Assembly: GCA_028280285.1 (NCBI GenBank)
Contig: JANQMA010000017.1
Location: forward strand, 993 to 64,992
DNA length: 64,000 nt
Direction of reading: 5' to 3'
Source of the DNA: Candidatus Omnitrophota bacterium
GTDB lineage: Bacteria > Omnitrophota > Gorgyraeia > Zapsychrales > Zapsychraceae
Part shown: positions 3,156 to 62,913 of the stretch, piece by piece
How positions within the stretch are numbered: the stretch's first letter is position 1
Layout of the letters: every line of letters starts with the position of its first letter
The notes under the pieces: model-generated
The model's database searches: none
What the model was told of the DNA's origin: nothing
Seen by the model: the letters and a program-made list of their open reading frames with translations, nothing else
Made by a program: the position numbers and the translations under genes

Positions 3156-3232
3156 CGGGAAGTGGCGCAGCTGGCTAGCGTACGTGCTTTGGGAGCATGG
3201 GGTCGCGGGTTCGAATCCCGCCTTCCCGACCA
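3156..3232 (+). tRNA. tRNA-Pro (anticodon UGG)
   Basis: 77-nt cloverleaf read directly from sequence. Acceptor stem CGGGAAG/CTTCCCG, D-arm GCGC-AGCTGGCTA-GCGT, anticodon arm CGTGC-TTTGGGA-GCATG (positions 34-36 = TGG), T-arm GCGGG-TTCGAAT-CCCGC, discriminator A, encoded CCA. Confidence 0.9.
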
Positions 3233-3240
3233 TTTACCCC

Positions 3241-3283
3241 CCCGGTTGCTTTGCGGATAAGCGAAGCAGCCGGGTTTTTTTAT
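3241..3283 (+). terminator. Rho-independent terminator hairpin after tRNA-Pro (first of two in tandem)
   Basis: CCCGGTTGCTTTGCGG-loop-CGAAGCAGCCGGG stem followed by TTTTTTT. Confidence 0.6.
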
Positions 3284-27801: not shown

Positions 27802-27875
27802 GTACTTGGTACTTAGGACTTCGGACTTGGTGGAAAATATCCTAAGTACTAAGTCCCAAGTCCCAAGTCCTAGGT
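27802..27875. repeat. AAGTCC/GGACTT-family palindromic element, copy 1
   Basis: GTACTTGGTACTTAGGACTTCGGACTTGG ... CCTAAGTACTAAGTCCCAAGTCCCAAGTCCTAGG. Confidence 0.8.
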
Positions 27876-27897
27876 CCAATACAATTAATAATAAGAT

Positions 27898-28272
27898 ATG
27901 ACAAACTCCCCACAAGGTTCAGAAAGAAGAAGAGATCCCCGCCTCGAAAATAGCATTCCGCTTAAGATTGTCCAAAAAGGCATCAATATCTCGACTAATA
28001 CAGTGAATGTCAGCCGTTCCGGCGCCTATTGTACTGTTGATCAATATATCGAACCAATGACCAAGATGAAAATTGATCTTATGGTTCCTGTCCGGCAAAA
28101 CGGCAAATTTGTCAGTAAAAAGATTTCATGTGACGGCGTGGTTGTGCGTGCGGAGGAATGTGAAGATGGCAAAAGTCATAATATTGCGATCTTTTTTAAT
28201 GATATCGCGCAGAAAGATGCCGAACGTATTGCCGAATATGTGAATTCTTATCTAAAGAATGAATCGAATTGA
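27898..28272 (+). CDS. PilZ-domain protein (second paralog)
   Basis: RRRDPRLENSIPLKI ... NVSRSGAYC matches the PilZ pattern. Confidence 0.6.
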   Translation: MTNSPQGSERRRDPRLENSIPLKIVQKGINISTNTVNVSRSGAYCTVDQYIEPMTKMKIDLMVPVRQNGKFVSKKISCDGVVVRAEECEDGKSHNIAIFFNDIAQKDAERIAEYVNSYLKNESN

Positions 28273-28955
28273 GTTTATCCAGATCCACTAAAAAACCGGT
28301 TCCGGTGCTTTTTGAAAATCAGCATTTTATCGTCTTTAATAAACCCGCCAGGCTTCTTGTCATCCCGTCACCGACCGAGAAAAATAATACATTAGTTAAT
28401 ATTGTGAATCGTCAGTATGCACGTAATGATGGATCGGCCAAGCTTCATCCATGCCACCGGTTGGACAAAGACACATCCGGGGCTATTTTGTTTGCCAAGG
28501 GTAAGGCCAACCAAAAGGTGATGATGGAGGAGTTTAAAGACAGGGAAATTAAAAAAGTCTATGAGGCCTTTGTGCATGGACACCCTAAAAGAAAAAAGGC
28601 ATCGATCAGTAAGCCGATCAAGTCACTGGATCAGAAGAAATTTAAGCAAACGCGGGCCAAGCCGGCTTTAACGAATTATCAAGTGAAGAAAACCTGTGAA
28701 CACTTTAGTGTCGTCGAGGCAGAGCCTGTGACCGGACGTGCTAATCAAATACGTATTCATTTCAAAGATATCGGCCATCCGCTTGTGGGGGAGCGCAAAT
28801 ACGCCATTGCGCGGGATTATCCGGTCAAATTTAAACGTGTTGCGCTTCATGCCAGCCGTTTGGAGTTTATTGATCCACATTCGCAACAGCATGTTATTGT
28901 GGATGCTCCTCTGGCGGAAGATATGAGAGAATTTTTGGAAAAAAGTGGTCCGTGA
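28269..28955 (+). CDS. RluA-family pseudouridine synthase
   Basis: HRLDKDTSGAILFAK (catalytic Asp motif), TGRANQIRIHF and HPLVGERKYA. The last three codons and the TGA stop lie inside a GTGGTC-family palindromic element. Confidence 0.8.
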   Translation: MSLSRSTKKPVPVLFENQHFIVFNKPARLLVIPSPTEKNNTLVNIVNRQYARNDGSAKLHPCHRLDKDTSGAILFAKGKANQKVMMEEFKDREIKKVYEAFVHGHPKRKKASISKPIKSLDQKKFKQTRAKPALTNYQVKKTCEHFSVVEAEPVTGRANQIRIHFKDIGHPLVGERKYAIARDYPVKFKRVALHASRLEFIDPHSQQHVIVDAPLAEDMREFLEKSGP

Positions 28956-29012
28956 TCCGTGGTCAGTGGTCGTTTTTATGTTTGATCACAGAACACAGAC
29001 CACAGATCACTA
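28944..29012. repeat. GTGGTCYGTG-family palindromic element, copy 1 (overlaps rluA stop)
   Basis: Left arm GTGGTCCGTGATCCGTGGTCAGTGGTC, right arm GATCACAGAACACAGACCACAGATCAC. Confidence 0.85.
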
Positions 29013-29949: not shown

Positions 29950-31974
29950 ATGGATCAATTCAAACTAGTTTCAAAATTCAAACCTGTCACCGAACAGCTG
30001 GATGCGGTCGATAAGCTCGTTCAAAACATTAAGGGCGGCACAAAAGATCAGGTTCTCCTCGGGGTAACCGGGAGCGGTAAAACATTCACCCTCGCCAATG
30101 TGATTGAGAAGATCAACCGTCCGACGCTCGTTATAAGCCACAATAAAACCCTTGCCGCTCAACTCTATAGCGAATTTAAAGAATTCTTTCCCCATAATGC
30201 GGTTGAGTATTTCGTGAGTTATTACGACTATTATCAACCGGAAGCCTATGTTCCCCAAACCGATATTTATATCGAGAAGGATGCTTCGATCAATGACCGG
30301 CTGGACCGTCTGCGTCTTGCGTCAACCACATCGCTTATGACCAGACGTGATGTTATTATTGTGGCGAGCGTTTCTTGTATTTACAATCTTGGTTCGCCTG
30401 AAGATTATGCACAGTTTTTACTTTATTTGAATGTTGGTGATGAAATTGAGCGCGATCAGGTGCTGGAGAAGCTGGTCGACATACAGTATGAACGCAGCGA
30501 TATGGATTTTAGGCGCGGTTCTTTCCGCGTGCGTGGGGATGTGGTCGAGGTTTATCCGGCATACCGGCAGGACGGCCTTAGAATTGAATTTTTCGGGGAT
30601 GAGATTGAAAAGATCAAACAAATTCATCCGCTGACAGGTGATGTGATTGCCGAACTTGATAAAATTGCCGTGTATCCGGCGAAACATTTTATCATCGGTC
30701 ATGAGCGCATTGACGCGGCCATGGTTGAAATCGAAACAGAACTGAAAGAACAACTTAAAGTATTAAATAAAAAAGGCAAGCTCGCCGAGGCGCAAAGACT
30801 TGAGTCGCGCACGAAATACGATATGGAAATGATGAAAGAGATGGGCTATTGCAACGGGATTGAAAACTATTCACGTGTCTTATCCGGCCGCCCACCGGGG
30901 TCCAGGCCGTATTCGCTCATTGATTATTTCCCGGACGATTTTGTAACGCTGATTGATGAGTCGCATGTAACCGTTCCACAGGTTAACGGGATGTATAACG
31001 GCGACCGCGCGCGTAAAACAACGCTTGTTGATTATGGTTTCCGTCTGCCGTCGTGTTTGGATAATCGTCCGCTTAAATTTGCTGAATTTGAAAAATTAAT
31101 CAGTCAGACTATTTATGTCTCCGCTACACCCGGGCCTTATGAGCAGAAAAAAGGCAAAGGAAATCTGGTCGAGCAGATTATCCGTCCGACGGGGATTGTT
31201 GATCCGCCGATTGAAGTGCGCAAGACCGAAGGGCAAATCGATGATTTGATGAATGAAATCAAAAAGCGGGCCAAGGCCAATGAGCGTGTGCTGGTTACAA
31301 CGCTGACCAAACGAATGTCGGAAGATTTAACGGAGTATCTGCAGGATAACAGTATTAAGGTAAAATATTTGCATTCCGACATTGAAACCATTGATCGTAC
31401 GAAAATCCTGCAGGATCTGCGGCTTAAAAAATATGACTGCCTTGTCGGGGTTAACCTTTTGCGTGAAGGTTTGGATTTGCCGGAAGTCTCTCTTGTGGCG
31501 ATACTCGATGCGGATAAGCAAGGCTTTTTACGTTCGCAGACTTCACTCATTCAAACAGCCGGGCGCGCTGCGCGTAATGTCAACGGCATTGTTATTATGT
31601 ATGCCGATACGATAAGCCAAGCGATGAAAGATACGATGGCCGAGTGTGAGCGCCGGCGTAAGATCCAACTCGCGTTTAATAAAAAGCATAATGTCACACC
31701 GCAGACGATTAAGCGGGCTATCCGCCAGGGAATTGAAGTGTTGGCCGACGAGGTCGAAGAAGTGGTGCTTGATGCGGCCGGCCAGGACAAAGAAGAGTTT
31801 GCTTTTGCCAATTCAATTGCCGCACTTGAACGGGAAATGGAAAATGCGGCGCGCAATTTACAATTTGAGAAAGCCGCCAAGTTTCGTGATAGAATAAAAG
31901 CATTACAGGAAAGCCTCGGGGAGCCGTTGGCCGAGCCGAGCGTGCGTAGGCGAAGAAAGAAATCTAAAAAGTGA
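29950..31974 (+). CDS. uvrB: excinuclease ABC subunit B
   Basis: Walker [10 protein letters not shown], helicase motifs, the UvrB beta-hairpin region and a C-terminal UVR domain ([27 protein letters not shown]). The stop codon lies inside a palindromic element. Confidence 0.95.
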
Positions 31975-32030
31975 TCAGTGGTCTGTGATCACAAATATTA
32001 ACTGACCACAGAACACAGACAACAGACCAC
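31969..32030. repeat. GTGGTCYGTG-family palindromic element, copy 2 (contains the uvrB stop codon)
   Basis: GTGATCAGTGGTCTGTGATCAC ... GACCACAGAACACAGACAACAGACCAC. Confidence 0.85.
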
Positions 32031-32907: not shown

Positions 32908-32975
32908 TTGGTACTTAGTACATGGGCCCTGGGACTTGGGTTTACCAAGTCCTAAGTCCCAAGTTCTAAGTCCAG
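32908..32975. repeat. AAGTCC/GGACTT-family palindromic element, copy 2 (in the groESL 5' UTR between CIRCE and the Shine-Dalgarno)
   Basis: GGTACTTAGTACATGGGCCCTGGGACTTGGG ... CCAAGTCCTAAGTCCCAAGTTCTAAGTCC. Confidence 0.8.
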
Positions 32976-35011: not shown

Positions 35012-35083
35012 TGGTGGTCTGTGTTCTGTGGTCTGTGTTCAGTTAAATGAACGACTGATCACAGATCACGGACCACAGATCAC
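35012..35083. repeat. GTGGTCYGTG-family palindromic element, copy 3 (intergenic, after groEL)
   Basis: GGTGGTCTGTGTTCTGTGGTCTGTGTTC ... GATCACAGATCACGGACCACAGATCAC. Confidence 0.85.
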
Positions 35084-38273: not shown

Positions 38274-38519
38274 CTTAGTGAACAGTGAACAGAAGGGGAA
38301 TACTTCTATTCACTAGCTGTTCCCTGTTCCCTAACACATCTCTTTTCCCATCCCATTATTTTTTGCATTAATATTAATATATGTAATACTTGCAATATTA
38401 ATGAGCATTTAATTTACACGACCATAAGGAAGTGTAAATTAGAAATGCGAATTAATCCCGAGTTGCTCTCGCTAAATGTCTGCAACGAGGGATCTTACAA
38501 TCAATAAGGATTAATATTC

Positions 38520-41500
38520 GTGAAACGCACTCACTGGACATATAGATGCATTGCACTTGTCGTAAGCTGTTTATTTACAGTTACTTCGATAAATCCCGTC
38601 TATGCCCAGATGCAACCTACCCAGGCCATTGCTCCTAAACCATTGCCTTTAAATGTGTTAAGTCAACCCTATGAACCGATTTTGATCAAAGGCCTTAAGG
38701 TCAATCAGACCAATCCATTTGAGATGGAGTTTATTGTAAGTGATCCGTGGTCCGTGGTCCGTGGTCAGCGGAATACTGATCACAGACCACAGAGCACAGA
38801 CCACCTAGAGCAGGAGTCTACTCAATTAATTAAATACTTCCTTGCCGCTTTAACCACTCCCGAGCAAGACATGTGGGTCAACCTATCCCCGTATGAGAAG
38901 AATCGGATTATTCCAGAGTCATTTGGTCGGACAGAAATGGGACGGGAGCTGCTTGTACAGGACTATCTTTTAAAACAGGTTACAGCATCATTGCTTCATC
39001 CGGATGGGGAGTATGGACAAGAGTTTTGGAGTAAAATAGCAACCCAAACATCGGAGGACATACCATTAGAATTATTCAATAAGGTCTGGATCATGCCGGA
39101 TAAAGCGGTGGTGTATGAGAATGAAGGGATAGCGTATGTGGTAGAGGCGAGTCTTAAGGTTATGTTGGAGGAAGATTACCTTGCGCAGCAAAAGAGTGGT
39201 CCGTGGTCCGTGGTCAGTGATCTGTCAAAAAATACGACCACAGATCACAGAACACAGACCACACAAATCATTCGTGAAACAATCATTCCCGCTATCGAAA
39301 CCGAGGTCAACAATAGCAAGAATTTCGCCAAGCTCCGCCAGATCTATCACAGCCTCATCCTGGCGACATGGTACAAGAAAAAGATGCAAAACGCGATTTT
39401 AACCCAAGTCTATGCCGATCAAAACAAGACTAATGGTGTAAGCCACAATGATCCTAAAGCAGCTGAAAAAATCTGGCAAGAGTACACCAAGACATTTAAA
39501 GAAGGGGCGTATAACTTTATCAAAGAAGAATACGATCCACAGACTCAGCAAATCGTTCCACGGAAGTATTTCAGCGGGGGGATGGCGATGGAGGTTGTGC
39601 TATCAGAACCGGCAGCGCTTACATCACAACAACAAGAGACTATTCCCGACAACGCCTACCTCGTCCGTGTTGCGTTAAACGAATTGACTCCCGATTCTGA
39701 TAGCGCGGCAATGGTTAAGAAAAAATCAGCGGATGATTTTAAATATAATGTCAATATAAGGACCCCCAAATTACAGGATCAACTCCCAGGGTTAGCAAAA
39801 AAACGGGAACAGACAAAGAAGGCACTTATTGGTTATTTCAATCAAATGATACATCATAATCCATTTGAAATGCCGAAATTTAATGTGAATTATAATCGAA
39901 TCATGCATTTACTACGACATATGATAGGGTTTGATGCTATTGGATTCTCATTTTCTGAACAAGATCCTGATGGCTTTATTACAAAAGCTGCGGTTTCTAA
40001 TGTGCTTATCCCTTTAATTGAACAAACAAAATTTCCTTTGTCTGTTGACCGTATGACACAATTTGTATTAGAGGCAAATTTAGATAATGAACGTCAGTTT
40101 AAATATATCGAAGCGCTTAATGATTTTAAAGTTTTTGCTACTTCTTATTCGGAAGGCGCCGAAAACGCAGCGTTGACAGCGCCCGCTCCCGACCCCGCCG
40201 TGATGACGCAAGAGGAACAACTTTCTATCGATCCGGCATCACTTGCTGAGTTAGCATTGGCTATGACTGAAAAGGATGTTCAAGATATCGCTGAAGTAGC
40301 CCGGTTGATAAAACAGAACTCCGATCATTATGCAAAAATATTGCTCAAAGAATATAACCAAACCAAAGACCAATTCAAAAATCGAGAAGAAATAATAAAG
40401 ATTGACGCTGTTGTAGACGATCCGACAATCCAGAAATTAATAAAAATATTTAAACGGATAAGCCGTAAAACAGGGAAAGAAAACAGCCGTAATGTTTCGC
40501 GTAGTTTAATGGGCTTAATTTATTTCTATAAATATATAACATATTTATATAAGCCCAAATATCAAATGGATGTTATAAGTGACATATCATTAAATATACT
40601 TTTGGGGGATATAATTAGGGAAAGCAATACTAAGAGAGGCCTTAAATCTTCCACCATTCCTATAGAAGATCAAATGCGCAATGTTGTTTTAGATTTTGCC
40701 GATAATTTAGGCAATTTGGTTGGGCGGATCAATGCACTGCCAAAAGCGAACACTACAGAGTTTGCACAAGTGTGGGCCTCTATGATTAATGAGGATAATT
40801 TTACCAGGGCAGATCTTTATCAGAACATAAAATCTTTTGGCAGGGTTTTAGAAGCGCGACGCGGGCGTTTTTTAACATTCTTAAGAGCAGACCGCAGCTT
40901 AACACGTGAAGCAAAAGAAACGTTGATTCTAAAAGCGCTTGCAATGAATCAAGAAGGGAAGGATCCAAAGGCAATTGTGGATGAATTAATGCAAGTGTGG
41001 ATTCCTCAATTTAAACGCAGTGAAGCAATATATGGTGTGCTAAGGATGACCGGCTGGGAATCAGAAATTCATAGATACCAATGGGGTGAATATGCAAAAT
41101 ATGCCCCTTTTCCTGTTCGGGAAATCACCAATGTCTACCGGGATATTGTTGGTATGCATTTAGATCCTCATATTTCCTCACATGATTGGACAGAGTATGT
41201 CGGACGTCCGGCACTCTCCTGGTTTGTTCAGTGGAAAAAAATAGAAGCCATGACTCAATTGAGTTTTATACCACTTGAAGATCCGGATGGTAATTTGATT
41301 TACAATGATTTGCAGGTTAATGGGGTTATCCCCGAGGAAATTTTAAAACTTGTTTATAAGGACGTTCATCCGCTGGCAACTATTTCCGGTACAGAAGATA
41401 AAAAGTGGAGGACGGAACGATGGCAGTTATATAAGGGCCATTACTATCCACCACTCGAAAGTGAATGGATAGAGTTTGTCAAAATGCTGCTCTATTCCTC

Positions 41501-44500: not shown

Positions 44501-46034
44501 TCAAATTGAAAATATCATTATGCAGGCACAAGAAATTGGCGATATAGATATGGAAAATTATTTAATATATGTTTTGGAACAAGGAGTTAAAAAATTTATT
44601 AAATCTGATACGTCAGAATATATTCAGGCAGTAGGTAAAACAAAAATGGACGGTCGTGAAGTTGTTTCAATAGCCGAGGAATTACTTAATCAATCAAGAT
44701 CTGATGATGACGTGAAATTATTGGTTAAATTGGTTTTAATCCATGAATTTAATCATATTCTTGATCACAAATTAAATCGTTTATCATTAAACATTATGAA
44801 ATTAGTTGACATAAATCTTATAGAACGTTCGGCCTTGATTCGTTCAGCTGCATATTTTGATGGATTTATAAAGAAAGAAGGCGATGGATTAAATGATTTT
44901 ATTGTCATGTACCGATTTGATGGCGATAAAATTATGGCTTATACTTCAACAAATTCGGAAATATCTTCTGTGAAATCAGATTATCAAAAGCCACCTGTTA
45001 TCATGCCTGGGGAAAATCGGTATACATATTATGATCAATTAGCTAGAAAAGGAAATATTGTAACGTCTGAAGAAACTGGGTCTATATATTATTATGAGTC
45101 ATATAGAAAAGGGGGTGATGACACTACACTGGAAAAAAATGGTGTCGTTTCTGAAAAAAATGGTGTCGTTTCTGATTCCGAAGGTGTTGAAAACGCTACG
45201 TTGGCAAAGGGCGCTTCCGACAATGCCGCGATGGCGGATAATTCAGATAGTGATGAGGTTTTTATAGAACAAGATAATTATACTTTTAAATATCGACGAC
45301 CAACACAAATAGCAATGGCTTCGGTAACAGTGATGAATCCCAAAGGAGTTCATGGTGGTCCTTCACAATATATAACGGGTTTGGTTAAATCGTATCAAGA
45401 TATTTGGCCACTAACGATTAAAATGAAATTTAAGGGTGAATACATTGATACGAATGATGTGAAAAATATTATGGAATTGAAAATAAAACAAGGTGATGTA
45501 TTGGAAATAGAGATGTTTGGGAGTGAAGAAGGGGCTTTAAAGTTTGTGCAAAGTATGGCCGCAAGGGTAGCTGATTCTGAAACACGTAAAAAGTATGAAG
45601 CGAAAATCACAAGACAGCCATTAAATGAGGATGACGCAGCATTGACTAAAGGTGGTATAGACTTCGACGCCTCCAAAATGGATCTAGAGATTCGGACGGA
45701 ACAAAGCCAGATGCTCGATGCTCGCCCGCCCCGCCGCTTCGCGGCGGAAGCTGCGGGCCGGGGATGCTCGATGCTAGAGGACGAAGAGTTGCGAAAAGAG
45801 TGCCTTACTAACACCTCTAGTGGTATACAGTTTAAGTTTACTCCCCAACAGATTGAGGGGATGCGCCAGAATATTACGGGCTTTAATCCGGTGATTATTA
45901 ATATCCAGCCGATTGTGAACTTGCCGTTGTTTTTGGGGTTGAATGATATTGAGGACGCGCCGGATGAGACAGAAACGGTAGAGGCAGATGGTCAGGATCT
46001 TTTAGCAAGAATGGAGGAGTATTCATATAACTAG
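38520..46034 (+). CDS. giant secreted protein (2504 aa) of unknown function, with repeated ENAAL..PAPDPAAM modules and an HEFNH motif
   Basis: Uninterrupted 7.5-kb ORF in an AT-rich genome. Signal peptide MKRTHWTYRCIALVVSCLFTVTSINPVYA-Q. HExxH at about nt 44745 (LVLIHEFNHILDH). Contains three in-frame palindromic-element insertions and 6-7 GC-rich repeat modules. Confidence 0.8.
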   Translation: MKRTHWTYRCIALVVSCLFTVTSINPVYAQMQPTQAIAPKPLPLNVLSQPYEPILIKGLKVNQTNPFEMEFIVSDPWSVVRGQRNTDHRPQSTDHLEQESTQLIKYFLAALTTPEQDMWVNLSPYEKNRIIPESFGRTEMGRELLVQDYLLKQVTASLLHPDGEYGQEFWSKIATQTSEDIPLELFNKVWIMPDKAVVYENEGIAYVVEASLKVMLEEDYLAQQKSGPWSVVSDLSKNTTTDHRTQTTQIIRETIIPAIETEVNNSKNFAKLRQIYHSLILATWYKKKMQNAILTQVYADQNKTNGVSHNDPKAAEKIWQEYTKTFKEGAYNFIKEEYDPQTQQIVPRKYFSGGMAMEVVLSEPAALTSQQQETIPDNAYLVRVALNELTPDSDSAAMVKKKSADDFKYNVNIRTPKLQDQLPGLAKKREQTKKALIGYFNQMIHHNPFEMPKFNVNYNRIMHLLRHMIGFDAIGFSFSEQDPDGFITKAAVSNVLIPLIEQTKFPLSVDRMTQFVLEANLDNERQFKYIEALNDFKVFATSYSEGAENAALTAPAPDPAVMTQEEQLSIDPASLAELALAMTEKDVQDIAEVARLIKQNSDHYAKILLKEYNQTKDQFKNREEIIKIDAVVDDPTIQKLIKIFKRISRKTGKENSRNVSRSLMGLIYFYKYITYLYKPKYQMDVISDISLNILLGDIIRESNTKRGLKSSTIPIEDQMRNVVLDFADNLGNLVGRINALPKANTTEFAQVWASMINEDNFTRADLYQNIKSFGRVLEARRGRFLTFLRADRSLTREAKETLILKALAMNQEGKDPKAIVDELMQVWIPQFKRSEAIYGVLRMTGWESEIHRYQWGEYAKYAPFPVREITNVYRDIVGMHLDPHISSHDWTEYVGRPALSWFVQWKKIEAMTQLSFIPLEDPDGNLIYNDLQVNGVIPEEILKLVYKDVHPLATISGTEDKKWRTERWQLYKGHYYPPLESEWIEFVKMLLYSSQNRLKSRRGNHDAVIVKHAYNLKIGNLRYDLYQSNNLWRLQYPYGDISDLPFSDYGKSLQTAQVLHGLMMHHLVVKYGLINNAPAEHHDFIMRLSDMWQSFENDLEETLQNRGYTRENLRLHVLSNAHGVDGIKYLRELFINRIFRLREKKVTEEIRNLVESTLTEVDDVLTEEYEKRKDVENAALIKQRPALSVERIADSDINLTAKRHPLDTKTDPAAMVKQNLANIDQNIYEDIVDHLLWHKPNVIVKDHYRDILARFIHDNRKKEKKFWSREGKKIFSKEQVRTLLESWPGNNMQYKAHVNSSGNREISIILHQKIKPTFTIDLTFKRDGQVKLGKQFKSHQNYIVDRLEESYGIDRIEARVIAQIARRYWFKSVFIPMLREMEIDHLHGKKIDEKSTFFAEMGFKDGVLSVDPAAMAEQEQESKKDQSAPVSFNVGDELRRIYHNTTRPKIFKVEKWPGQAIQLRMEEDPLPRDKPPNSITDEDLTYRIYASVTHGKSAFYYPVAMRSGIFYKNDIVDLTKGWQITYNYPAVYKLIQNYRDKNGYASYLEAIDHLLENDEETRKYEKHLINQIISLFPILQIFYGFSSDEQVDEYFNQAPQQLENKGIASALLEYLGSYLPVGTKVKIIGANRPTVEALNKGTVFEDTLLGKMYTRIGFKVLSIEQKDGQNPIVVFQKTKNVKPRAKWKDVTKLGGHVLSVESGVVSDSEGVENAALSKVVPDSAVMVGLKTDPIELSMVEENYIRLLIENNYQKQTFQVMINDIKDPDRIHQLMTEVLKRKGYYRPEINNFNDRSRFPLEVPGDRGLILTSMGDGNEDILRFTVESNNVIMWKRPKIGGSKLGVAPVAYVWWATHPEIRKELSGKPMKGYKADYRQGRALEKAWIFKIALPDGAKDWNKYDYSGSFPVWQKDLKQNVENAALTEPAPDPAAMAKQEFERTDSAVVADQEGQYIIPGFDIIKYSVDSYDQENREARESREARYELNDWQEGVVLAQIENIIMQAQEIGDIDMENYLIYVLEQGVKKFIKSDTSEYIQAVGKTKMDGREVVSIAEELLNQSRSDDDVKLLVKLVLIHEFNHILDHKLNRLSLNIMKLVDINLIERSALIRSAAYFDGFIKKEGDGLNDFIVMYRFDGDKIMAYTSTNSEISSVKSDYQKPPVIMPGENRYTYYDQLARKGNIVTSEETGSIYYYESYRKGGDDTTLEKNGVVSEKNGVVSDSEGVENATLAKGASDNAAMADNSDSDEVFIEQDNYTFKYRRPTQIAMASVTVMNPKGVHGGPSQYITGLVKSYQDIWPLTIKMKFKGEYIDTNDVKNIMELKIKQGDVLEIEMFGSEEGALKFVQSMAARVADSETRKKYEAKITRQPLNEDDAALTKGGIDFDASKMDLEIRTEQSQMLDARPPRRFAAEAAGRGCSMLEDEELRKECLTNTSSGIQFKFTPQQIEGMRQNITGFNPVIINIQPIVNLPLFLGLNDIEDAPDETETVEADGQDLLARMEEYSYN
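38741..38804. repeat. GTGGTCYGTG-family element, copy 4, in frame inside the giant ORF
   Basis: GATCCGTGGTCCGTGGTCCGTGGTCAGCGGAATACTGATCACAGACCACAGAGCACAGACCAC, translated as DPWSVVRGQRNTDHRPQSTDH. Confidence 0.85.
39196..39263. repeat. GTGGTCYGTG-family element, copy 5, in frame inside the giant ORF
   Basis: GTGGTCCGTGGTCCGTGGTCAGTGATCTG...GACCACAGATCACAGAACACAGACCAC, translated as SGPWSVVSDLSKNTTTDHRTQTTQ. Confidence 0.85.
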
Positions 46035-46066
46035 TGATAGAGTGATAAAGTGGTAGTAGTGATAGG
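46032..46066. repeat. GTGATAGAGTGATAAAGTGGTAG-family repeat copy directly after the giant-ORF stop
   Basis: CTAGTGATAGAGTGATAAAGTGGTAGTAGTGATAGG shares the tandem unit with 54638-54678. Confidence 0.65.
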
Positions 46067-51059: not shown

Positions 51060-51087
51060 GAGAAATAAAAGTGGTTGTAATAAATTA

Positions 51088-51172
51088 GGTTAAAGGTTTT
51101 AGGTATTAGGTTTTAGTAAAACAAATGGCTAACACCCAACGCCTGAAACCTAAAACCTTCTGTCATTTAACC
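51088..51172. repeat. GGTTAAAGGTTTTAGGT-family palindromic element, copy 1 (after dnaE)
   Basis: GGTTAAAGGTTTTAGGTATTAGGTTTTAG ... CTGAAACCTAAAACCTTC ... TTAACC. Confidence 0.75.
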
Positions 51173-52956: not shown

Positions 52957-53228
52957 AAGTAAAAATTAAAAAAGAAAATTTAAAATTTAAAGAAACTGAG
53001 AAATAAAAAATAAATTAAAAATTGTATTTGGTAATTGGTATTTAGTAATTGGAGGTTAATGATTTATAAATTAGTTTCATAACGAAAACATGATTTCGAA
53101 AAATTCTATTTCAATGCTTTTATTAACTAATTACCAATTACTAACGACCAAATACAATTTTAATTTTTAAATTTATTTAACTTTTAAATTTTCTTTTTTA
53201 ATTTTTATTTCTCATTTTTAAATTATTT
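52957..53228. repeat. Long (about 270 bp) AT-rich imperfect palindrome (MITE-like) filling the hisS-aspS intergenic region
   Basis: Outer arms AAAATTAAAAAAGAAAATTTAAAA / TTTTAAATTTTCTTTTTTAATTTT. Inner arms AAAATTGTATTTGGTAATTGGTATTTAGTAATTGG / CCAATTACTAACGACCAAATACAATTTT. Confidence 0.75.
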
Positions 53229-54635: not shown

Positions 54636-54637
54636 AA

Positions 54638-54843
54638 AGTGATAAAGTGATAAAGTGATAAAGTGGTAGAGTGATAAAAAGGTTAAAGGTTTTAGGTTAG
54701 AGGTGAAAATAAATTTTTATTTTAACCCTTCACCTTCAACCTTTAACCAACAGTATTATTTTGATCTTTATTGTTTTTAAATTTTTTACTAGCACTTTAT
54801 CACCAATTGTTACTTTACTTATGAGTATCACTCTATCACTAAT
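54638..54843. repeat. Composite nested palindrome after aspS: GTGATAAAGTG tandem-repeat arms flanking a GGTTAAAGGTTTTAGGT-family element
   Basis: 54638-54678 (GTGATAAAGTGATAAAGTGATAAAGTGGTAGAGTGATAAAA), then 54680-54748 (GGTTAAAGGTTTTAGGTTAGAGGTG ... CACCTTCAACCTTTAACC), then 54792-54843 (CACTTTATCACC ... ATCACTCTATCACT, inverted). Confidence 0.75.
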
Positions 54844-55456: not shown

Positions 55457-55513
55457 CAGTTGCTCGTTGCTGGTTGCTCGTTGCTAGCAACTAGCATCAA
55501 GCAACTAGCAACT
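55457..55513. repeat. GTTGCTCGTTGCT / AGCAACTAGCAAC palindromic element after the LysM gene
   Basis: GCAGTTGCTCGTTGCTGGTTGCTCGTTGCTAGCAACTAGCATCAAGCAACTAGCAACT. Confidence 0.7.
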
Positions 55514-55523
55514 ATACATAAGC

Positions 55524-56471: not shown

Positions 56472-57900
56472 GACCACCAAATCACATGAGCAAATAACAA
56501 GATACGTGACAGCCACCTTTTTAGGAATTTTGTTTGTTGCTTTTTGTTATTTGATGAACTACTCATTAATACTTCCGTTGTTGGTCATACTGATGGGCGC
56601 TCATTTGCGTCTTTCGCGTAATATCAATTCGCGTATGCTGCTTAATCTTGGCTTATTATTCATGGTCATTGTGGCACTCGCGTATTTCATACAATATAAA
56701 TTTCCCAACACAACATTTGTGATCCCTGTTGCCAGTATTGGTATGTTAACGATGCTTTTATTTAATAGCTATCGATTAACATTGATTATGTCATTTGTGA
56801 CGAGTGTGTTTGTCGGCAATATGCTCGATGGTGGTTTTGGCATGATGATTATGTTTTTTTCTGGCGCTATGGTCGGTGGATATGCCGTTTATGAAGCACG
56901 GACACGAGGGCAGTTATTTACAGCGGGGCTTTTTGCCAGTGCAATACAAACTATTGCTTTAATTTTGATGTACCCTGACTCACAGAAAATTCTAGCCGGG
57001 GAGTTTATGAGTGAATATCTTTATCCGACTGTTGCCAATGGTTTTCTTTCTGCGCTTTTTGTTGTTGCGACACTAAAAATATTTGAGTCAATTTGTGGCG
57101 TTTTGACGAACTTCAGCTTGCTGGAATTATCCGACTTTAATAATCCGCTTCTTAAACGTATGATTATGGAGGCGCCGGGCACCTATCATCACAGTTTGGT
57201 TGTCAGTAACCTAGCCGAGGCTGCGTCGAATGAGATCGGGGCGAATGGACTTTTGACGCGTGTAGGTGCGTACTATCATGATATCGGCAAAATGTCGAAG
57301 CCTGAATACTTCACGGAAAATCAATTGATGGGCGGCAATAAACATGATGCGATTGAACCATCGATGAGCCGATTGGTTATTATTAATCATGTGAAAGAAG
57401 GAATTGAACTTGCTAAGAAGCATAAGTTAAATCAGGCTATCATTGATTTTATTCCGCAGCATCACGGGACATCGCTTATTTTCTATTTTCATCAAAAGGC
57501 GATTGAAGGGGCCGGTGATGTGCGTGAAGTTGATGAGGAAAATTACCGTTATCCCGGACCTAAACCGCAGACACGTGAGACCGCGATCACACTTTTGGCG
57601 GATTCGGTGGAAGGGGCCACGCGCGCGCTTGATGAGCATACACCAAGCAGTATTCAAGAGACAGTGCAGAAGGTTATCAATAATAAATTTATCGACGGGC
57701 AGCTGGATGAATGTCCACTGACACTCAAGGAAATTGACCGGATTGCTAAAACATTTACCCGCATCTTAAGCGCGATGTATCACGGACGCGTTAAATATCC
57801 TGAAAAGAAAAAAGAGAATGGACATTCAAATAGAAAATCTTCAGAAAAAGATAATTCTGAAACCAATTCCGATCAAGAACCTGGTCCAAACGGTTCTTAA
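56443..57900 (+). CDS. 7TM receptor with intracellular HD hydrolase (YqfF/PgpH-like)
   Basis: Multiple TM helices followed by the HD domain (HSLVVSNLAE...YYHDIGK...QHHGT). Confidence 0.85.
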   Translation: MRLMNMTTVETTKSHEQITRYVTATFLGILFVAFCYLMNYSLILPLLVILMGAHLRLSRNINSRMLLNLGLLFMVIVALAYFIQYKFPNTTFVIPVASIGMLTMLLFNSYRLTLIMSFVTSVFVGNMLDGGFGMMIMFFSGAMVGGYAVYEARTRGQLFTAGLFASAIQTIALILMYPDSQKILAGEFMSEYLYPTVANGFLSALFVVATLKIFESICGVLTNFSLLELSDFNNPLLKRMIMEAPGTYHHSLVVSNLAEAASNEIGANGLLTRVGAYYHDIGKMSKPEYFTENQLMGGNKHDAIEPSMSRLVIINHVKEGIELAKKHKLNQAIIDFIPQHHGTSLIFYFHQKAIEGAGDVREVDEENYRYPGPKPQTRETAITLLADSVEGATRALDEHTPSSIQETVQKVINNKFIDGQLDECPLTLKEIDRIAKTFTRILSAMYHGRVKYPEKKKENGHSNRKSSEKDNSETNSDQEPGPNGS

Positions 57901-58318
57901 AGGCGAAGGGATAAAAAGCGCTGCGCTTGATCTTGCCTTCGTTACCGCACAAAAGATACGTTCGATTAATAGCAAATATTTAAATCATCATTATGTGACG
58001 GATGTTATTACGTTTGATTACGGTGGTCCGTGGTCTGTGGTCCGTGGTCGGAGTCCTAAAATTAATACACAGAAAACAGACCACAGAAAACAGACCACTT
58101 TAAATGGTGAAATTATTATTTCCACCGATGCGGTCAGGCAGAATGCGCGCAAGTTTAAAACCAGTGAGGCATATGAGCTTGCGCTTTATCTCGTGCATGG
58201 CATTTTGCATTTGTTGGGGTATGATGATAAGACAGTGAAAGATAAGGCGGTCATGCGTGAGGCGGAGGAGAGGGTAATGGGGTATTTGGGTAAAAAAATA
58301 GATAAGGTAAACGCATGA
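57818..58318 (+). CDS. ybeY: rRNA maturation endoribonuclease YbeY carrying an in-frame palindromic-element insertion of about 25 aa
   Basis: Zinc-binding HGILHLLGYDD motif. Insert GGPWSVVRGRSPKINTQKTDHRKQTTLNG lies between VITFDY and EIIISTDAV. Confidence 0.85.
   Translation: MDIQIENLQKKIILKPIPIKNLVQTVLKGEGIKSAALDLAFVTAQKIRSINSKYLNHHYVTDVITFDYGGPWSVVRGRSPKINTQKTDHRKQTTLNGEIIISTDAVRQNARKFKTSEAYELALYLVHGILHLLGYDDKTVKDKAVMREAEERVMGYLGKKIDKVNA
58023..58098. repeat. GTGGTCYGTG-family element, copy 6, in frame inside ybeY
   Basis: GGTGGTCCGTGGTCTGTGGTCCGTGGTCGGAG...CACAGAAAACAGACCACAGAAAACAGACCAC. Confidence 0.85.
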
Positions 58319-59598: not shown

Positions 59599-59606
59599 AA
59601 TTATCA

Positions 59607-59672
59607 CGTAGGGGCGGCTCGTGAGCCGCCCTAAAATGTCGATGAATTAGGGTCGCTCACGAGCGCCCCCTA
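59607..59672. repeat. GC-rich palindromic element after dtd (GTAGGGGCGG family)
   Basis: GTAGGGGCGGCTCGTGAGCCGCCCTA ... TAGGGTCGCTCACGAGCGCCCCCTAC. Related hairpins GGGCCGACACATTGGTCGGCCC and GTAGGGGCGGAGCAATGTCTCCGCCC lie at 59064-59135. Confidence 0.7.
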
Positions 59673-59683
59673 CAGGAATATTA

Positions 59684-60469: not shown

Positions 60470-62452
60470 ATGAAAAAAATTTTATTGATTATTTTAGTGA
60501 TCACGCTTTTAGGCGGAGGCACTTATTTGTATTTACAAAAGAGCTCACCCGCAAGTGACTTTGAAAGCATTGTGCCCGATGGACCGATCGCCTACATCGA
60601 AGTAACAGATGCCGAGAAGAATTTAAACCGTTTTATGTCTTCTCAATTTTTTGAAAGCTTGGCCAACTTGGATCCCGGGGAAGTCTCGCCGGTTAGTAAT
60701 CCCCTAAAACAGTTTAGAGAGGCTTTAGAATCGGATGAATCGATCAAATCGTTTATGACGATTGTCAAACATAAGGTTGCCTTGGTGGTCTATGATATCA
60801 ACATTGATTTTGCCCAGACAATGAAGACAACGGAATTTCCTTTGGATCAGATGTTTAAGGTGCTTGAGAGTTTTTATGTGCTCATCGAACTTGATGCTGG
60901 CATGAAGGCGGCCGAAATTATTGCCAGTGCCTTGCAGGCATTTGGCGACGGGGTAAGTGTCGAAAAAAAAGAGCATAGCGGGCACACATATCAAGTTGTT
61001 ACAGCCGGAGTGGATCAGCCGAGCATTTCTTACACACGTTTGGGTAATGTCTTGGTTGTGACCCTTGCTGAAAATGCGATGAGAAAAGCGATTGATGTCA
61101 AAAACGGTGCTCAAACTTCTTTGGCGAGTGATGCCAAGTTTCAGGCAGCGCGCAAAGACACAGCGGGAGATATTTTTGGATATTACAGTTTTGATCATCT
61201 CACGCAGCTGATGGAAACTATGTTTGCATCTGTTCCGGATGATATTGTTAAAAACCAGGCACAAAAGCAATTAACTTTTTTTGAAGGTCTGAATTATGGG
61301 GTGTTTTCCTCCGATTGGGATGAGTTTATCTCAATGCATTGGATTATAGATTATGATAGCGCCAAATTACATAAAGATTATGTCGATAATTACGAGAGTT
61401 GCGTAGGAGAGCAGAATAAGACAATCAAGTTTGTTCCGCAAGATGTGTTGGGATATTATTGGGCCGGATGTATTGACTGGAGGCAAATGCTCGAAGAAGT
61501 CAAACAAGGACTCGGACAAATCCAGAATTCTGCTGCGACCGGTGCAATGGCATTTGCCGAACCGTATCTAAACATATTGGGTAGCGACATGGGCGGATTT
61601 TTAACCGACATTGAACAAGGTGTGTTTCCTATTCCGAATTTAATGCTTTTTATCGGGTTAAATGATGTTGAAGCGGTGCAAACAATGATTGCGCCCTTTT
61701 TAGAAAGTCCGTTTGCCCGTATCGAAGCACTTGACTATGAAGGGCAAAAAGTGTTCAAGGTGCAGCTGCCGGTGAATGTGATCATGCCGGGATACGCCTT
61801 TATCGACAAGCATCTTGTTATTGCCACACACGTGAGTCAGCTACAAGAATCTATTGCTTTATCTAAAGGTAAAGGCAAGTCTCTTACTGATAATGATACA
61901 TACAAAAATATTGGGCTTGGTTCGTCGAAAGATGGCAATAGCGCACAATATTTTGAATTAAGCCGTTTAATGACAAAGTTGTTGGCTTATGAAGATTTTT
62001 CTAAAAGTATGCTCCGTCAGCAAGAAGAAAAAAAGCAAGCGTTTATGGAAGGCAGTGTTAGAAGACTTGAGGATATCCAAACGCGTATTAACCGTAAGCA
62101 AGAGGAGCTTAAGAAACAAGAAGATGAAGTTACTGCCTTGGAAGACGCCCTATTTCTTGATGAAACCAAAGGCCTTGATGTATCGGTCCAAAGGCGGACA
62201 ATTGAAGACCTGCAAAGTGATATGGCAACATTGAAAACGGATATTGAAGTTGCCCGTGAGCAAGAGGCAGACACACAGGCTATTCTTGATTCTTACACAG
62301 ATACTGTTGGTCAAACCGCATCAATAGAGGCCACATTGGATCATGTGGCAGTGCCTTTGCTCAATGCATTAAAAAACATAGATGTCTTTGCCGGAAAGGC
62401 AACCACGACCAAAGACAAGACGAAAACAAAATTCATTTTAAAGGTAAAATAA
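60470..62452 (+). CDS. hypothetical membrane-anchored protein with a C-terminal coiled coil (660 aa)
   Basis: N-terminal TM ILLIILVITLLGGGTYLYL. A long heptad-like region (EEKKQAFMEGSVRRLEDIQTRINRKQEELKKQEDEV...). Confidence 0.5.
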   Translation: MKKILLIILVITLLGGGTYLYLQKSSPASDFESIVPDGPIAYIEVTDAEKNLNRFMSSQFFESLANLDPGEVSPVSNPLKQFREALESDESIKSFMTIVKHKVALVVYDINIDFAQTMKTTEFPLDQMFKVLESFYVLIELDAGMKAAEIIASALQAFGDGVSVEKKEHSGHTYQVVTAGVDQPSISYTRLGNVLVVTLAENAMRKAIDVKNGAQTSLASDAKFQAARKDTAGDIFGYYSFDHLTQLMETMFASVPDDIVKNQAQKQLTFFEGLNYGVFSSDWDEFISMHWIIDYDSAKLHKDYVDNYESCVGEQNKTIKFVPQDVLGYYWAGCIDWRQMLEEVKQGLGQIQNSAATGAMAFAEPYLNILGSDMGGFLTDIEQGVFPIPNLMLFIGLNDVEAVQTMIAPFLESPFARIEALDYEGQKVFKVQLPVNVIMPGYAFIDKHLVIATHVSQLQESIALSKGKGKSLTDNDTYKNIGLGSSKDGNSAQYFELSRLMTKLLAYEDFSKSMLRQQEEKKQAFMEGSVRRLEDIQTRINRKQEELKKQEDEVTALEDALFLDETKGLDVSVQRRTIEDLQSDMATLKTDIEVAREQEADTQAILDSYTDTVGQTASIEATLDHVAVPLLNALKNIDVFAGKATTTKDKTKTKFILKVK

Positions 62453-62842: not shown

Positions 62843-62913
62843 GGTGGTCTGTGTTCCGTGTTCTGTGTTCTGTATCGTTCCAAGATGACCACTGACCACA
62901 GATCACAGACCAC
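62843..62913. repeat. GTGGTCYGTG-family palindromic element, copy 7 (intergenic, after the CMD gene)
   Basis: GGTGGTCTGTGTTCCGTGTTCTGTGTTCTG ... GACCACTGACCACAGATCACAGACCAC. Confidence 0.85.

What the first reader, a model, noticed from the sequence alone, without database searches (positions are those of the whole stretch)
58023..58098. In-frame insertion of the palindromic element into the conserved housekeeping gene ybeY
The YbeY translation is standard (H-x-x-x-H-x-x-G-Y-D zinc site) except for a 25-30-aa segment GGPWSVVRGRSPKINTQKTDHRKQTTLNG between VITFDY and EIIISTDAV. That segment is encoded exactly by a GTGGTCYGTG hairpin element. The insert is a multiple of three and has no stop codon. 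It uses the same reading frame (PWSVVRG...TDH..QTT) as the two copies inside the giant ORF. A selfish element adding a peptide to an essential rRNA-maturation nuclease is notable. It implies selection on the element sequence for frame-neutrality.
Basis: seen in the sequence. Interest (0 to 1): 0.8.

Follow-up and report, generated by a model that had tools for sequence, protein, structure and literature searches.

The report
Heptad-repeat hairpin element inside ybeY
A 76-base hairpin built from 7-base repeats, one of at least seven copies in this stretch of an Omnitrophota genome, lies in frame inside the housekeeping gene ybeY and encodes a floppy 26-residue surface loop, a situation best known from Rickettsia.

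Summary
ybeY (57818-58318, +) is an intact 166-codon ORF. Its strand 3-strand 4 loop (58022-58099, 78 nt) consists almost entirely of a hairpin: 27 nt of GTGGTCY heptads, an 18-nt loop, then 31 nt of inverted heptads (58023-58098). Six more copies lie in the window. Two are in frame in a 2504-aa ORF and two supply the TGA stops of an rluA-like gene and uvrB. The two closest orthologues I could recover have unrelated 8- and 18-residue loops there. AlphaFold2 models a confident YbeY core with the insert disordered.

Because 7 and 3 share no factor, a heptad array gives the same cyclic peptide in every frame. About 39% of random heptads are stop-free in all six frames, so no selection for frame-neutrality is needed.

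Best reading: a dispersed heptad hairpin of unknown mobility entered a tolerant loop and is translated. It behaves like Rickettsia RPEs and is built like cyanobacterial STRR heptamers. Homologues of two protein families carry other repeat-like or palindromic segments at the same loops. One in-frame copy is far more conserved at third codon positions than its host gene, which remains unexplained.

Verdict: new variant of a known kind, moderate interest.

The parts
57818..58318 (+). ybeY ORF (166 aa), intact and in frame across the element
   Evidence: ORF list. Pfam YbeY E = 4.5e-28. The AF2 model matches the YbeY structures 7y7o, 1oz9 and 1xm5.
58022..58099 (+). Loop-coding segment, codons 69-94 (78 nt), GGPWSVVRGRSPKINTQKTDHRKQTT, between conserved FDY and LNGE
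   Evidence: Alignment with orthologues. The same loop is 54 nt in L003 and 24 nt in L002. Residues 72-88 have pLDDT below 50.
58023..58049 (+). Left arm: GTGGTCC GTGGTCT GTGGTCC GTGGTC, an exact 14-nt unit repeated 1.9 times
58050..58067 (+). Copy-specific hairpin loop GGAGTCCTAAAATTAATA
   Evidence: Loops of the seven copies share no similarity.
58068..58098 (+). Right arm: CACA GAAAACA GACCACA GAAAACA GACCAC. It is an exact 14-nt unit repeated 2.2 times. Two heptads are degenerate (CC>AA), giving Lys codons.
38740..38804 (+). Copy in frame in the 2504-aa ORF at 'site A' (SDPWSVVRGQRNTDHRPQSTDH). The nearest homologue P0157 has no such element here.
39196..39262 (+). Copy in frame in the 2504-aa ORF at 'site B' (SGPWSVVSDLSKNTTTDHRTQTT). 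The same element type sits at the same site and codon phase in seven homologues, the window's own protein included.
28945..29010 (+). Copy overlapping the 3' end of an rluA-like gene (28269-28955). It supplies the last codons (SGP) and the TGA stop, from a GTGATC heptad.
31971..32030 (+). Copy filling the uvrB-coaX spacer. Its first heptad, GTGATCA, supplies the uvrB TGA stop (31972-31974).
35014..35083 (+). Intergenic copy 27 nt downstream of groEL
62844..62913 (+). Intergenic copy downstream of ORF 60470-62452

Best explanation
The segment is one copy of a dispersed family of heptad-repeat hairpins. Each arm holds about four GTGRTCY heptads (27 nt), and the 11-18-nt loop differs between copies. 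The host is an Omnitrophota bacterium whose short intergenic spacers are full of such elements.

In this lineage a copy came to occupy the naturally variable loop between strands 3 and 4 of YbeY, replacing a shorter ancestral loop with a net length of 3n. The gene is still read through. The heptad arms hold no stop codon in any frame, and in the frame used they encode a hydrophilic, basic peptide. That peptide protrudes as a disordered surface loop from an otherwise normal metallo-nuclease fold.

The copy persists because it is tolerated, not because YbeY needs it.

Shown: repeat family membership, in-frame position, absence from the closest recoverable orthologues, conservation of both gene halves, predicted disorder.
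Inferred: insertion rather than local growth, translation, neutrality. The mobilisation mechanism is unknown.
For: - Family: 30 motif hits against 0.03 expected, forming seven hairpins of one architecture. All fold on either strand.
- In frame: 166-aa ORF with a Pfam YbeY match.
- Orthologues: the syntenic relatives L003 and L002 have FDY-SDGTDAPCSSIVTRNERK-LDGE and FDY-SDGGNILI-LDGE. Neither has a GTGNTC heptad pair in the 10 and 20 kb fetched. None of the 109 homologue loops extracted carries this peptide.
- Gene alive: the N-terminal part is 76.5% identical to L003 and the C-terminal part 63%, with many synonymous differences.
- Structure: mean pLDDT 84.7 and pTM 0.81. Only residues 72-88 fall below 50, between strands 63-67 and 94-102. 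The fold matches solved YbeY structures.
- Tolerance is intrinsic: the heptads are stop-free. The insert has GRAVY -1.5 and charge about +5.
- Hint of translation-level selection: heptad position 7 is C in 7 of 9 left-arm positions of the coding copies, giving Pro/Arg where T would give Leu/Cys. It is C in 0 of 9 positions in their right arms (Fisher p = 0.002).
- Parallel cases: two in-frame copies lie in a signal-peptide-bearing 2504-aa protein, and two copies donate stop codons.
- Literature analogues: Rickettsia RPEs and Coxiella QMITEs (PMC10969869; PMC5896051).
Against: - No empty site in a near-identical genome was available. The closest orthologue is only about 70% identical, so insertion cannot be separated from local origin, or from loss in the relatives.
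- No target-site duplication, transposase or RAYT gene was seen among the window ORFs scanned.
- Loops of the copies are unrelated. That is unusual for copies transposed from a master element.
- At site B of the large ORF the element is far better conserved at third codon positions than its host gene. This argues against simple neutral tolerance, at least for that copy.
- There is no expression or peptide evidence.
Confidence: 0.65

Rival explanations
1. Local origin. The hairpin was not inserted ready-made. It grew in place from a small palindromic or heptad-like seed in the loop, by replication slippage that duplicated heptad pairs in both arms.
For: - Both arms of the ybeY copy are exact 14-nt tandem duplications. 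So are arms at 35014 and 55459.
- The LysM-phoH spacer hairpin is orthologous in relative L003, with conserved outer arms GTTGCYCGTTGYT. Only the window has four heptads there, so arms do expand in place.
- Heptamers are the most slippage-prone repeat class reported in bacteria (Mrazek 2007, as summarised in PMC4679880).
- The ancestral loop begins AGTGATGG, which faintly resembles GTGATCC.
Against: - A 14-nt duplication in either arm, or in both (28 nt), would shift the reading frame of an essential gene. The 4+4 form therefore most likely predates its arrival in the ORF.
- The same heptad flavour at seven loci in 64 kb is hard to obtain by independent local growth.
- The orthologous loops in L003 and L002 show no heptads or palindrome.
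Confidence: 0.15
2. Maintained for a function. One possibility is nucleotide-level function: an mRNA or DNA hairpin, or an array of heptad sites for a binding protein, affecting ybeY-recO expression. Another is peptide-level function: a basic loop helping YbeY bind rRNA.
For: - At site B of the large ORF, third-position identity between the window and L129 is 74% (17 of 23) inside the element. It is 35% over the other 358 codons (p = 2.8e-4).
- Seven divergent homologues keep the element in the same phase.
- The two CC>AA changes in the ybeY right arm both create Lys and raise the charge.
- CspB-type proteins bind heptamer repeats, one protein per heptamer (PMC4679880).
Against: - The arms of a copy are no more complementary to each other (21.2 of 27) than to arms of other copies (22.6 of 27). 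There is therefore no covariation supporting a selected helix.
- The ybeY copy is the most degenerate hairpin of the seven.
- Close orthologues work without it.
- Homologues carry decayed versions at site B.
- There is no Rfam match and no terminator.
- The third-position signal can equally come from recent re-insertion or gene conversion. With the comparison limited to identical residues, it is not significant (p = 0.08).
Confidence: 0.15
3. Artefact or dying gene. Either the element was placed there by mis-assembly at a repeat, or ybeY is split and only the C-terminal 93-aa product held in the protein collection is made.
For: - The gene call on record starts at a GTG inside the element (P0001, 93 aa).
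- Repeats are classic mis-assembly sites.
- Read-level data were not available.
Against: - Two assemblies agree base for base over 6.6 kb.
- Both flanks are halves of the same gene, in frame and in conserved synteny: HD-domain membrane protein gene, ybeY, recO.
- The 27-nt arms are shorter than usual assembly k-mers.
- The N-terminal half is more conserved than the C-terminal half.
- The orthologue in L003, which has no element, was also called truncated (116 of 157 aa). ybeY overlaps the upstream gene by 83 nt there too, so the truncation is probably a gene-caller effect.
Confidence: 0.03

Closest known systems
Rickettsia palindromic elements (RPE; Ogata et al. 2000 Science, 2002 Genome Res; reviewed in PMC10969869)
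   Same: A dispersed palindromic repeat found in frame inside unrelated housekeeping genes. It adds a peptide at positions compatible with the protein fold, and the host gene stays functional.
   Different: RPEs are about 100-150 bp and their full-length consensus is conserved between copies. They are not built from heptads and are confined to Rickettsia. Here the element is 60-76 nt, only the heptad arms are shared, the loops are copy-specific, and the host is an Omnitrophota bacterium. No sequence relationship was tested or is expected.
Cyanobacterial STRR heptanucleotide repeats and bacterial long heptamer SSRs (Mazel 1990 from my own knowledge; Vioque 1997, cited in PMC2858038; Mrazek 2007, as summarised in PMC4679880)
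   Same: The unit is 7 nt. Several heptad 'flavours' coexist in one genome. [quoted passage not shown] Arms change by slippage.
   Different: The heptad sequences and the phylum differ. Here the arrays come as short inverted pairs (4+4 heptads) that form hairpins, and they are translated inside protein genes.
REP/BIME and REPIN elements mobilised by RAYT transposases (PMC3733652)
   Same: Short imperfect palindromes at high density in spacers between co-directional genes. They are probably transcribed within operons.
   Different: REPs are 20-40 bp, carry a GTAG or CGTC tag and are extragenic by definition. No RAYT gene was seen here, and the arms are heptad arrays. A separate GTAG-containing palindrome does exist in the window at 59599-59682.
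Bacterial MITEs that fuse with ORFs (Coxiella QMITE1/2, ERIC, Correia; PMC5896051, PMC3184786)
   Same: Copies overlap gene ends and donate stop codons or C-terminal residues, as copies 28945 and 31971 do. Occasional copies are in frame in mid-gene.
   Different: MITEs have terminal inverted repeats around a conserved core and are flanked by target-site duplications. Neither a conserved core nor duplications were found here.

Membership tests
YbeY endoribonuclease (host gene) | Pfam PF02130 match and YbeY fold | tested here: met
   E = 4.5e-28, 98 bits against a cut-off of 25. The AF2 model matches 7y7o, 1oz9 and 1xm5, with TM-score normalised to the target of 0.75-0.86.
YbeY endoribonuclease (host gene) | H-x3-H-x5-H metal site | tested here: inconclusive
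   H127 and H131 are present. The third position is D137, which is invariant in the 30-sequence alignment. The window protein and relatives L002 and L003 have no His at that position or the next. Asp may act as the ligand; this was not tested.
Rickettsia palindromic elements (RPE) | In-frame presence in conserved protein genes at fold-compatible positions | tested here: met
   The ybeY loop and two sites in the 2504-aa ORF.
Rickettsia palindromic elements (RPE) | Length of about 100-150 bp with a family consensus conserved along the whole element; Rickettsia host | tested here: not met
   Copies are 60-76 nt with unrelated loops. The best protein hits are Omnitrophota. RPE sizes are taken from PMC10969869. 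RPE consensus sequences were not compared directly.
REP / REPIN | 20-40 bp palindrome with a 5' GTAG or CGTC tag | tested here: not met
   The element starts GTGG/GTGA and its arms are 27 nt of heptads. The criterion is from PMC3733652.
REP / REPIN | Associated RAYT (Y1 transposase) gene in the genome | not testable with these tools
   Only 64 kb of the genome is visible. None of the 45 window ORFs scanned matches a transposase family.
MITE | Terminal inverted repeats | tested here: met
   The two heptad arms are inverted repeats, about 78% complementary.
MITE | Flanking target-site duplication and a conserved internal sequence | tested here: not met
   The flanks of the seven copies show no consistent direct repeat and are merely A/T-rich. 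The internal loops are unrelated.
STRR-type heptanucleotide repeats | Tandem 7-nt units, several unit types per genome, mainly intergenic | tested here: met
   TRF finds period-7 arrays of at least six further unit types in the window besides GTGGTCY, most of them paired as hairpins.
STRR-type heptanucleotide repeats | The specific STRR unit sequences of heterocystous cyanobacteria | not tested
   The units recalled from memory (CCCCAGT, TTGGTCA, CAACAGT) differ from those here, and the host is not a cyanobacterium. No STRR reference set was compared.

The most novel reading that the evidence does not exclude
Heptad-repeat hairpins are a distinct element class and not classical MITEs or REPs. 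Several heptad flavours coexist per genome. The arms are kept uniform at the nucleotide level, even inside ORFs, and the elements repeatedly occupy the same surface loops of conserved proteins across Omnitrophota. This would imply a sequence-periodic process, such as heptad-templated synthesis or repair, gene conversion, or a heptad-binding protein, that makes or maintains them. It would also make them a regular source of new protein loops well outside Rickettsia.
Probability: 0.25. Interest if true: 0.75.

Novelty: new variant of a known kind. Interest (0 to 1): 0.55.

Why it matters
In-frame palindromic repeats in housekeeping genes have been treated as largely a Rickettsia peculiarity. A 2024 review only says it is 'conceivable' that the same happens elsewhere (PMC10969869). 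Here the same outcome appears in an uncultivated phylum, with a structurally different element built from heptads.

The homologue comparisons suggest a wider pattern. The variable loops of YbeY and of a very large Omnitrophota protein family hold different repeat-like or palindromic segments in different lineages.

This has three consequences:
- Such repeats could be a recurrent source of loop variation in proteins.
- Annotation may suffer. The gene call on record here starts inside the element, although an overlap with the upstream gene probably contributes. Peptide searches also picked up many tiny spurious ORFs over heptad arrays.
- One in-frame copy is conserved at the nucleotide level beyond what protein coding requires. 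That gives a concrete way to ask what creates and maintains these arrays.

Tried and rejected
- Genome-contig scan with (GTGNTCN)x4. It returned 119 loci, mostly simple tandem GTGGTCA-type arrays in Acidobacteriota, Chloroflexota, Planctomycetota and Verrucomicrobiota. Only 3 had the hairpin form and no record title names Omnitrophota.
- Metagenome-contig scan with a hairpin-specific pattern. It gave 5 loci with 50-70% G+C and the same 4+4-heptad architecture. The four I translated all sit at ORF edges or in doubtful ORFs, not as mid-gene insertions.
- Viral-contig scan: 0 hits.
- Protein search with an element-peptide profile. It returned only 34-77-aa ORFs with no Pfam domain over (GACCACA)n-type arrays, and no real genes with inserts.
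- Extending the source contig beyond the window. One flanking protein was not on record and the other gave only a 1.2-kb Logan contig. P0157 and P0159 were not on record either.
- Known RNA family: none at the gathering threshold, and only sub-threshold miRNA-like hairpin hits. No intrinsic terminator.
- Rejected: 'same peptide means same frame'. The peptide is the same in any frame.
- Rejected: 'frame-neutrality was selected'. About 39% of random heptads are stop-free in all six frames.
- Rejected: homology between the hairpin loop and the ancestral ybeY loop DNA. By eye, about a third of positions match, which is chance level for AT-rich sequence.

Full report
**1. What is there**

Window 57818-58318 (+) is a 166-codon ORF. 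It matches Pfam YbeY (E = 4.5e-28). It lies in the order phoH, HD-domain membrane protein gene, ybeY, recO, dtd, tatD.

Best protein hits for YbeY and for the neighbouring 2504-aa ORF are named Candidatus Omnitrophica/Omnitrophota.

Between the conserved TDVITFDY and LNGEIIISTD lie 26 codons (58022-58099, 78 nt). Of these, 76 nt (58023-58098) form a hairpin:
- a 27-nt left arm, GTGGTCC GTGGTCT GTGGTCC GTGGTC
- an 18-nt loop
- a 31-nt right arm of inverted heptads, CACA GAAAACA GACCACA GAAAACA GACCAC

The hairpin folds at -32 kcal/mol, z = -4.1 against shuffles.

**2. It is a repeat family**

GTGGTCYGTGGTC with up to 1 mismatch occurs 30 times, against 0.03 expected. The hits form seven hairpins: 28945, 31971, 35014, 38740, 39196, 58023 and 62844. 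Each has arms of three or four GTGRTCY heptads and an 11-18-nt loop, and the loops are unrelated between copies.
- Two copies are in frame in a 2504-aa ORF. That ORF starts with a signal-peptide-like segment and belongs to a very large family, with 7792 representatives at E <= 0.001.
- Two copies overlap gene ends. A GTGATC heptad provides the TGA stop of an rluA-like gene and of uvrB.
- The other two copies lie in intergenic spacers downstream of groEL and of ORF 60470-62452.

No transposase family matched among the 45 window ORFs scanned. Rfam has nothing at these sites.

**3. Is it an insertion into a living gene?**

The two closest orthologues I could recover are syntenic:
- L003 (Logan SRR29340338) has FDY-SDGTDAPCSSIVTRNERK-LDGE.
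- L002 (ENA ERZ25072740) has FDY-SDGGNILI-LDGE.

Neither has a GTGNTC heptad pair in the 10 and 20 kb fetched. None of the 109 loops extracted from 119 homologues carries this peptide.

The 68 residues upstream of the insert are 76.5% identical to L003, with 20 synonymous and 16 non-synonymous codon differences. The downstream part is 63% identical. Both halves are therefore under purifying selection.

The 93-aa product on record (P0001) starts at a GTG inside the element. It is best read as a gene-caller truncation. The element-free orthologue in L003 is also truncated in the record, and in both genomes ybeY overlaps the upstream gene by 83 nt.

An independent Logan assembly reproduces the region exactly. 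Read-level proof is still missing.

**4. Structure**

AlphaFold2 with a 30-sequence alignment gives mean pLDDT 84.7 and pTM 0.81. Only residues 72-88 fall below 50, between strands 63-67 and 94-102. The model matches the YbeY crystal structures 7y7o, 1oz9 and 1xm5.

The loop is variable in the family, 9-34 residues. The insert is hydrophilic and basic, with GRAVY -1.5 and charge about +5.

**5. Frame-neutrality**

Because 7 and 3 share no factor, a heptad array read in any frame gives the same cyclic 7-residue peptide: GPWSVVR on one arm and TDHRPQT on the other. GTGGTCC and GTGGTCT have no stop in any of the six frames. Only the GTGATC variant creates a TGA, in one frame.

About 39% of random heptads at this composition are stop-free in all six frames. 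The property therefore needs no special selection. A filter on which insertions survive is enough.

All three coding copies, and the copy at the rluA-like gene end, do begin at codon position 2. With four loci this is only suggestive.

A possible sign of translation-level selection is heptad position 7. In the left arms of the coding copies it is C in 7 of 9 positions, giving Pro/Arg where T would give Leu/Cys. In their right arms it is C in 0 of 9 positions (p = 0.002). A subfamily effect cannot be excluded.

**6. The element class**

The window also holds heptad hairpins with other units: GTACTTG, AGTGAAC, TTAGGTT, AATTGGT, AAAGGTT and GTTGCTC. All are intergenic.

Several arms are exact 14-nt duplications. 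The LysM-phoH spacer hairpin is orthologous in L003 but has four heptads only in the window. Arms therefore grow in place by slippage.

The arms of a copy are no more complementary to each other than to arms of other copies, 21.2 against 22.6 of 27 positions. There is thus no covariation evidence for a selected helix.

The same 4+4 GTGGTCN architecture occurs in contigs with 50-70% G+C and in a Pyrinomonadaceae MAG. Simple GTGGTCA-type arrays are widespread. The build resembles cyanobacterial STRR heptamers and the heptamer SSRs that Mrazek et al. reported as the most abundant repeat class in most genomes (PMC4679880).

**7. Recurrence at the same protein loops**

In homologues of the large ORF's N-terminal domain, the two sites that carry elements in the window are variable loops. 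From the peptide sequences:
- Seven homologues, the window's own protein included, carry the GTGGTCN-type peptide at site B in the same phase. Others look like decayed versions of it.
- The nearest homologue, P0157 (80% identical with loops masked), appears to have a different heptad hairpin there (SSMLDAS...SSIQHPAS) and no such element at site A.
- Many others hold peptides I recognise, from my own experience of metagenome proteins, as translations of common palindromic repeats (VIPAKAGIH, VIARSEATKQS, SSPNVLIGDP, GEHIGSPLR).

DNA confirmed this for one case. L129 has GTGGTCA-flavour arms at site B, plus a second copy upstream of the gene.

In YbeY itself, a Verrucomicrobiia orthologue has an unrelated 78-nt palindrome (-42 kcal/mol) in the same loop. 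I found no second copy of it in that 20-kb locus.

**8. Unexplained**

Between the window and L129, third-codon-position identity is 74% (17 of 23) inside the site-B element. It is 35% over the other 358 aligned codons (p = 2.8e-4). Restricted to identical residues it is 9 of 13 against 42% (p = 0.08).

Possible causes are independent recent insertion at a hot spot, gene conversion among dispersed copies, or nucleotide-level selection. These data cannot separate them.

**9. Comparison and verdict**

Functionally this is the RPE situation: a palindromic repeat in frame in housekeeping genes (PMC10969869). The stop-codon donation resembles Coxiella QMITEs (PMC5896051). It is not a member of the RPE, REP or classical MITE families, on the grounds of size, tags, conserved core, target-site duplications and host. 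Architecturally it is closest to STRR-type heptamers.

I rate it a new variant of a known kind, with interest 0.55. The ybeY case alone is a tolerated loop insertion. The broader pattern and the nucleotide-level conservation are what deserve follow-up.

Noticed in passing
window 27802-27877, 32945-32973, 38277-38332, 51085-51159, 53020-53159, 54678-54748, 55459-55514: Intergenic period-7 arrays with other heptad units (GTACTTG, AAGTCCT, AGTGAAC, TTAGGTT, AATTGGT, AAAGGTT, GTTGCTC). Most are paired as hairpins. Several arms are exact 14-nt duplications.
   Followed up: partly
window 55459-55514 versus L003 7503-7561: The LysM-phoH spacer hairpin is orthologous in a relative, with conserved outer arms. 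Only the window has expanded it to four heptads per arm, so arms grow in place.
   Followed up: yes
window 28945-28955 and 31971-31974: Element heptads of the GTGATC type supply the TGA stop codons of an rluA-like pseudouridine synthase gene and of uvrB. For the former they also supply the last three codons.
   Followed up: partly
window 38740-38804 and 39196-39262; proteins P0155-P0411: Two variable loops in the N-terminal domain of the 2504-aa ORF family hold what look like different repeat-derived peptides in different lineages. These include other heptad flavours and common metagenomic 'repeat peptides'. Apart from the window and L129, this was judged from protein sequences only.
   Followed up: partly
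window 39196-39262 versus L129 1019-1105: The in-frame site-B element is 74% identical at third codon positions between two genes whose other codons are 35% identical there. This points to nucleotide-level maintenance, re-insertion or gene conversion.
   Followed up: partly
L131 10205-10288 (Verrucomicrobiia YbeY, P0067): An unrelated 78-nt palindrome (-42 kcal/mol) encodes the same YbeY loop (GVPPSGGLPRNFSQQTNRLKPELQT). Other long YbeY loops in the homologue set also look repeat-derived, judged by peptide only.
   Followed up: partly
window 59599-59682: A palindrome that is not heptad-based (ACGTAGGGGCGGCTCGTGAGCCGCCC...) fills the dtd-tatD spacer and contains a GTAG as REP elements do. L003 has similar GTAGGG palindromes at 3208-3275 and downstream of ybeY.
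   Followed up: no
window 58196-58231 (YbeY residues 127-138): The third metal-ligand position of the H-x3-H-x5-H motif is Asp (D137), invariant in the 30-sequence alignment. This protein and its two closest relatives also lack the His that most Omnitrophota homologues have one residue later.
   Followed up: no
window 57818-57900: ybeY overlaps the upstream HD-domain membrane protein gene by 83 nt. The overlap is also 83 nt in L003 and 44 nt in L002. This probably explains why gene callers truncated ybeY in the public records.
   Followed up: partly
window 54636-54678 and 46033-46065: Period-8 tandem arrays (AAAGTGAT x5.4 and AGTGATAG x4). The first adjoins a heptad hairpin and the second sits right after the stop of the 2504-aa ORF.
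   Followed up: no
loci L004-L122 (genome contigs): Tandem (GTGGTCA)n-like heptad arrays are common in Acidobacteriota, Chloroflexota, Planctomycetota and Verrucomicrobiota MAGs. One Caldilineaceae locus (L025) has an array long enough to give 34 overlapping matches to the four-heptad pattern.
   Followed up: no
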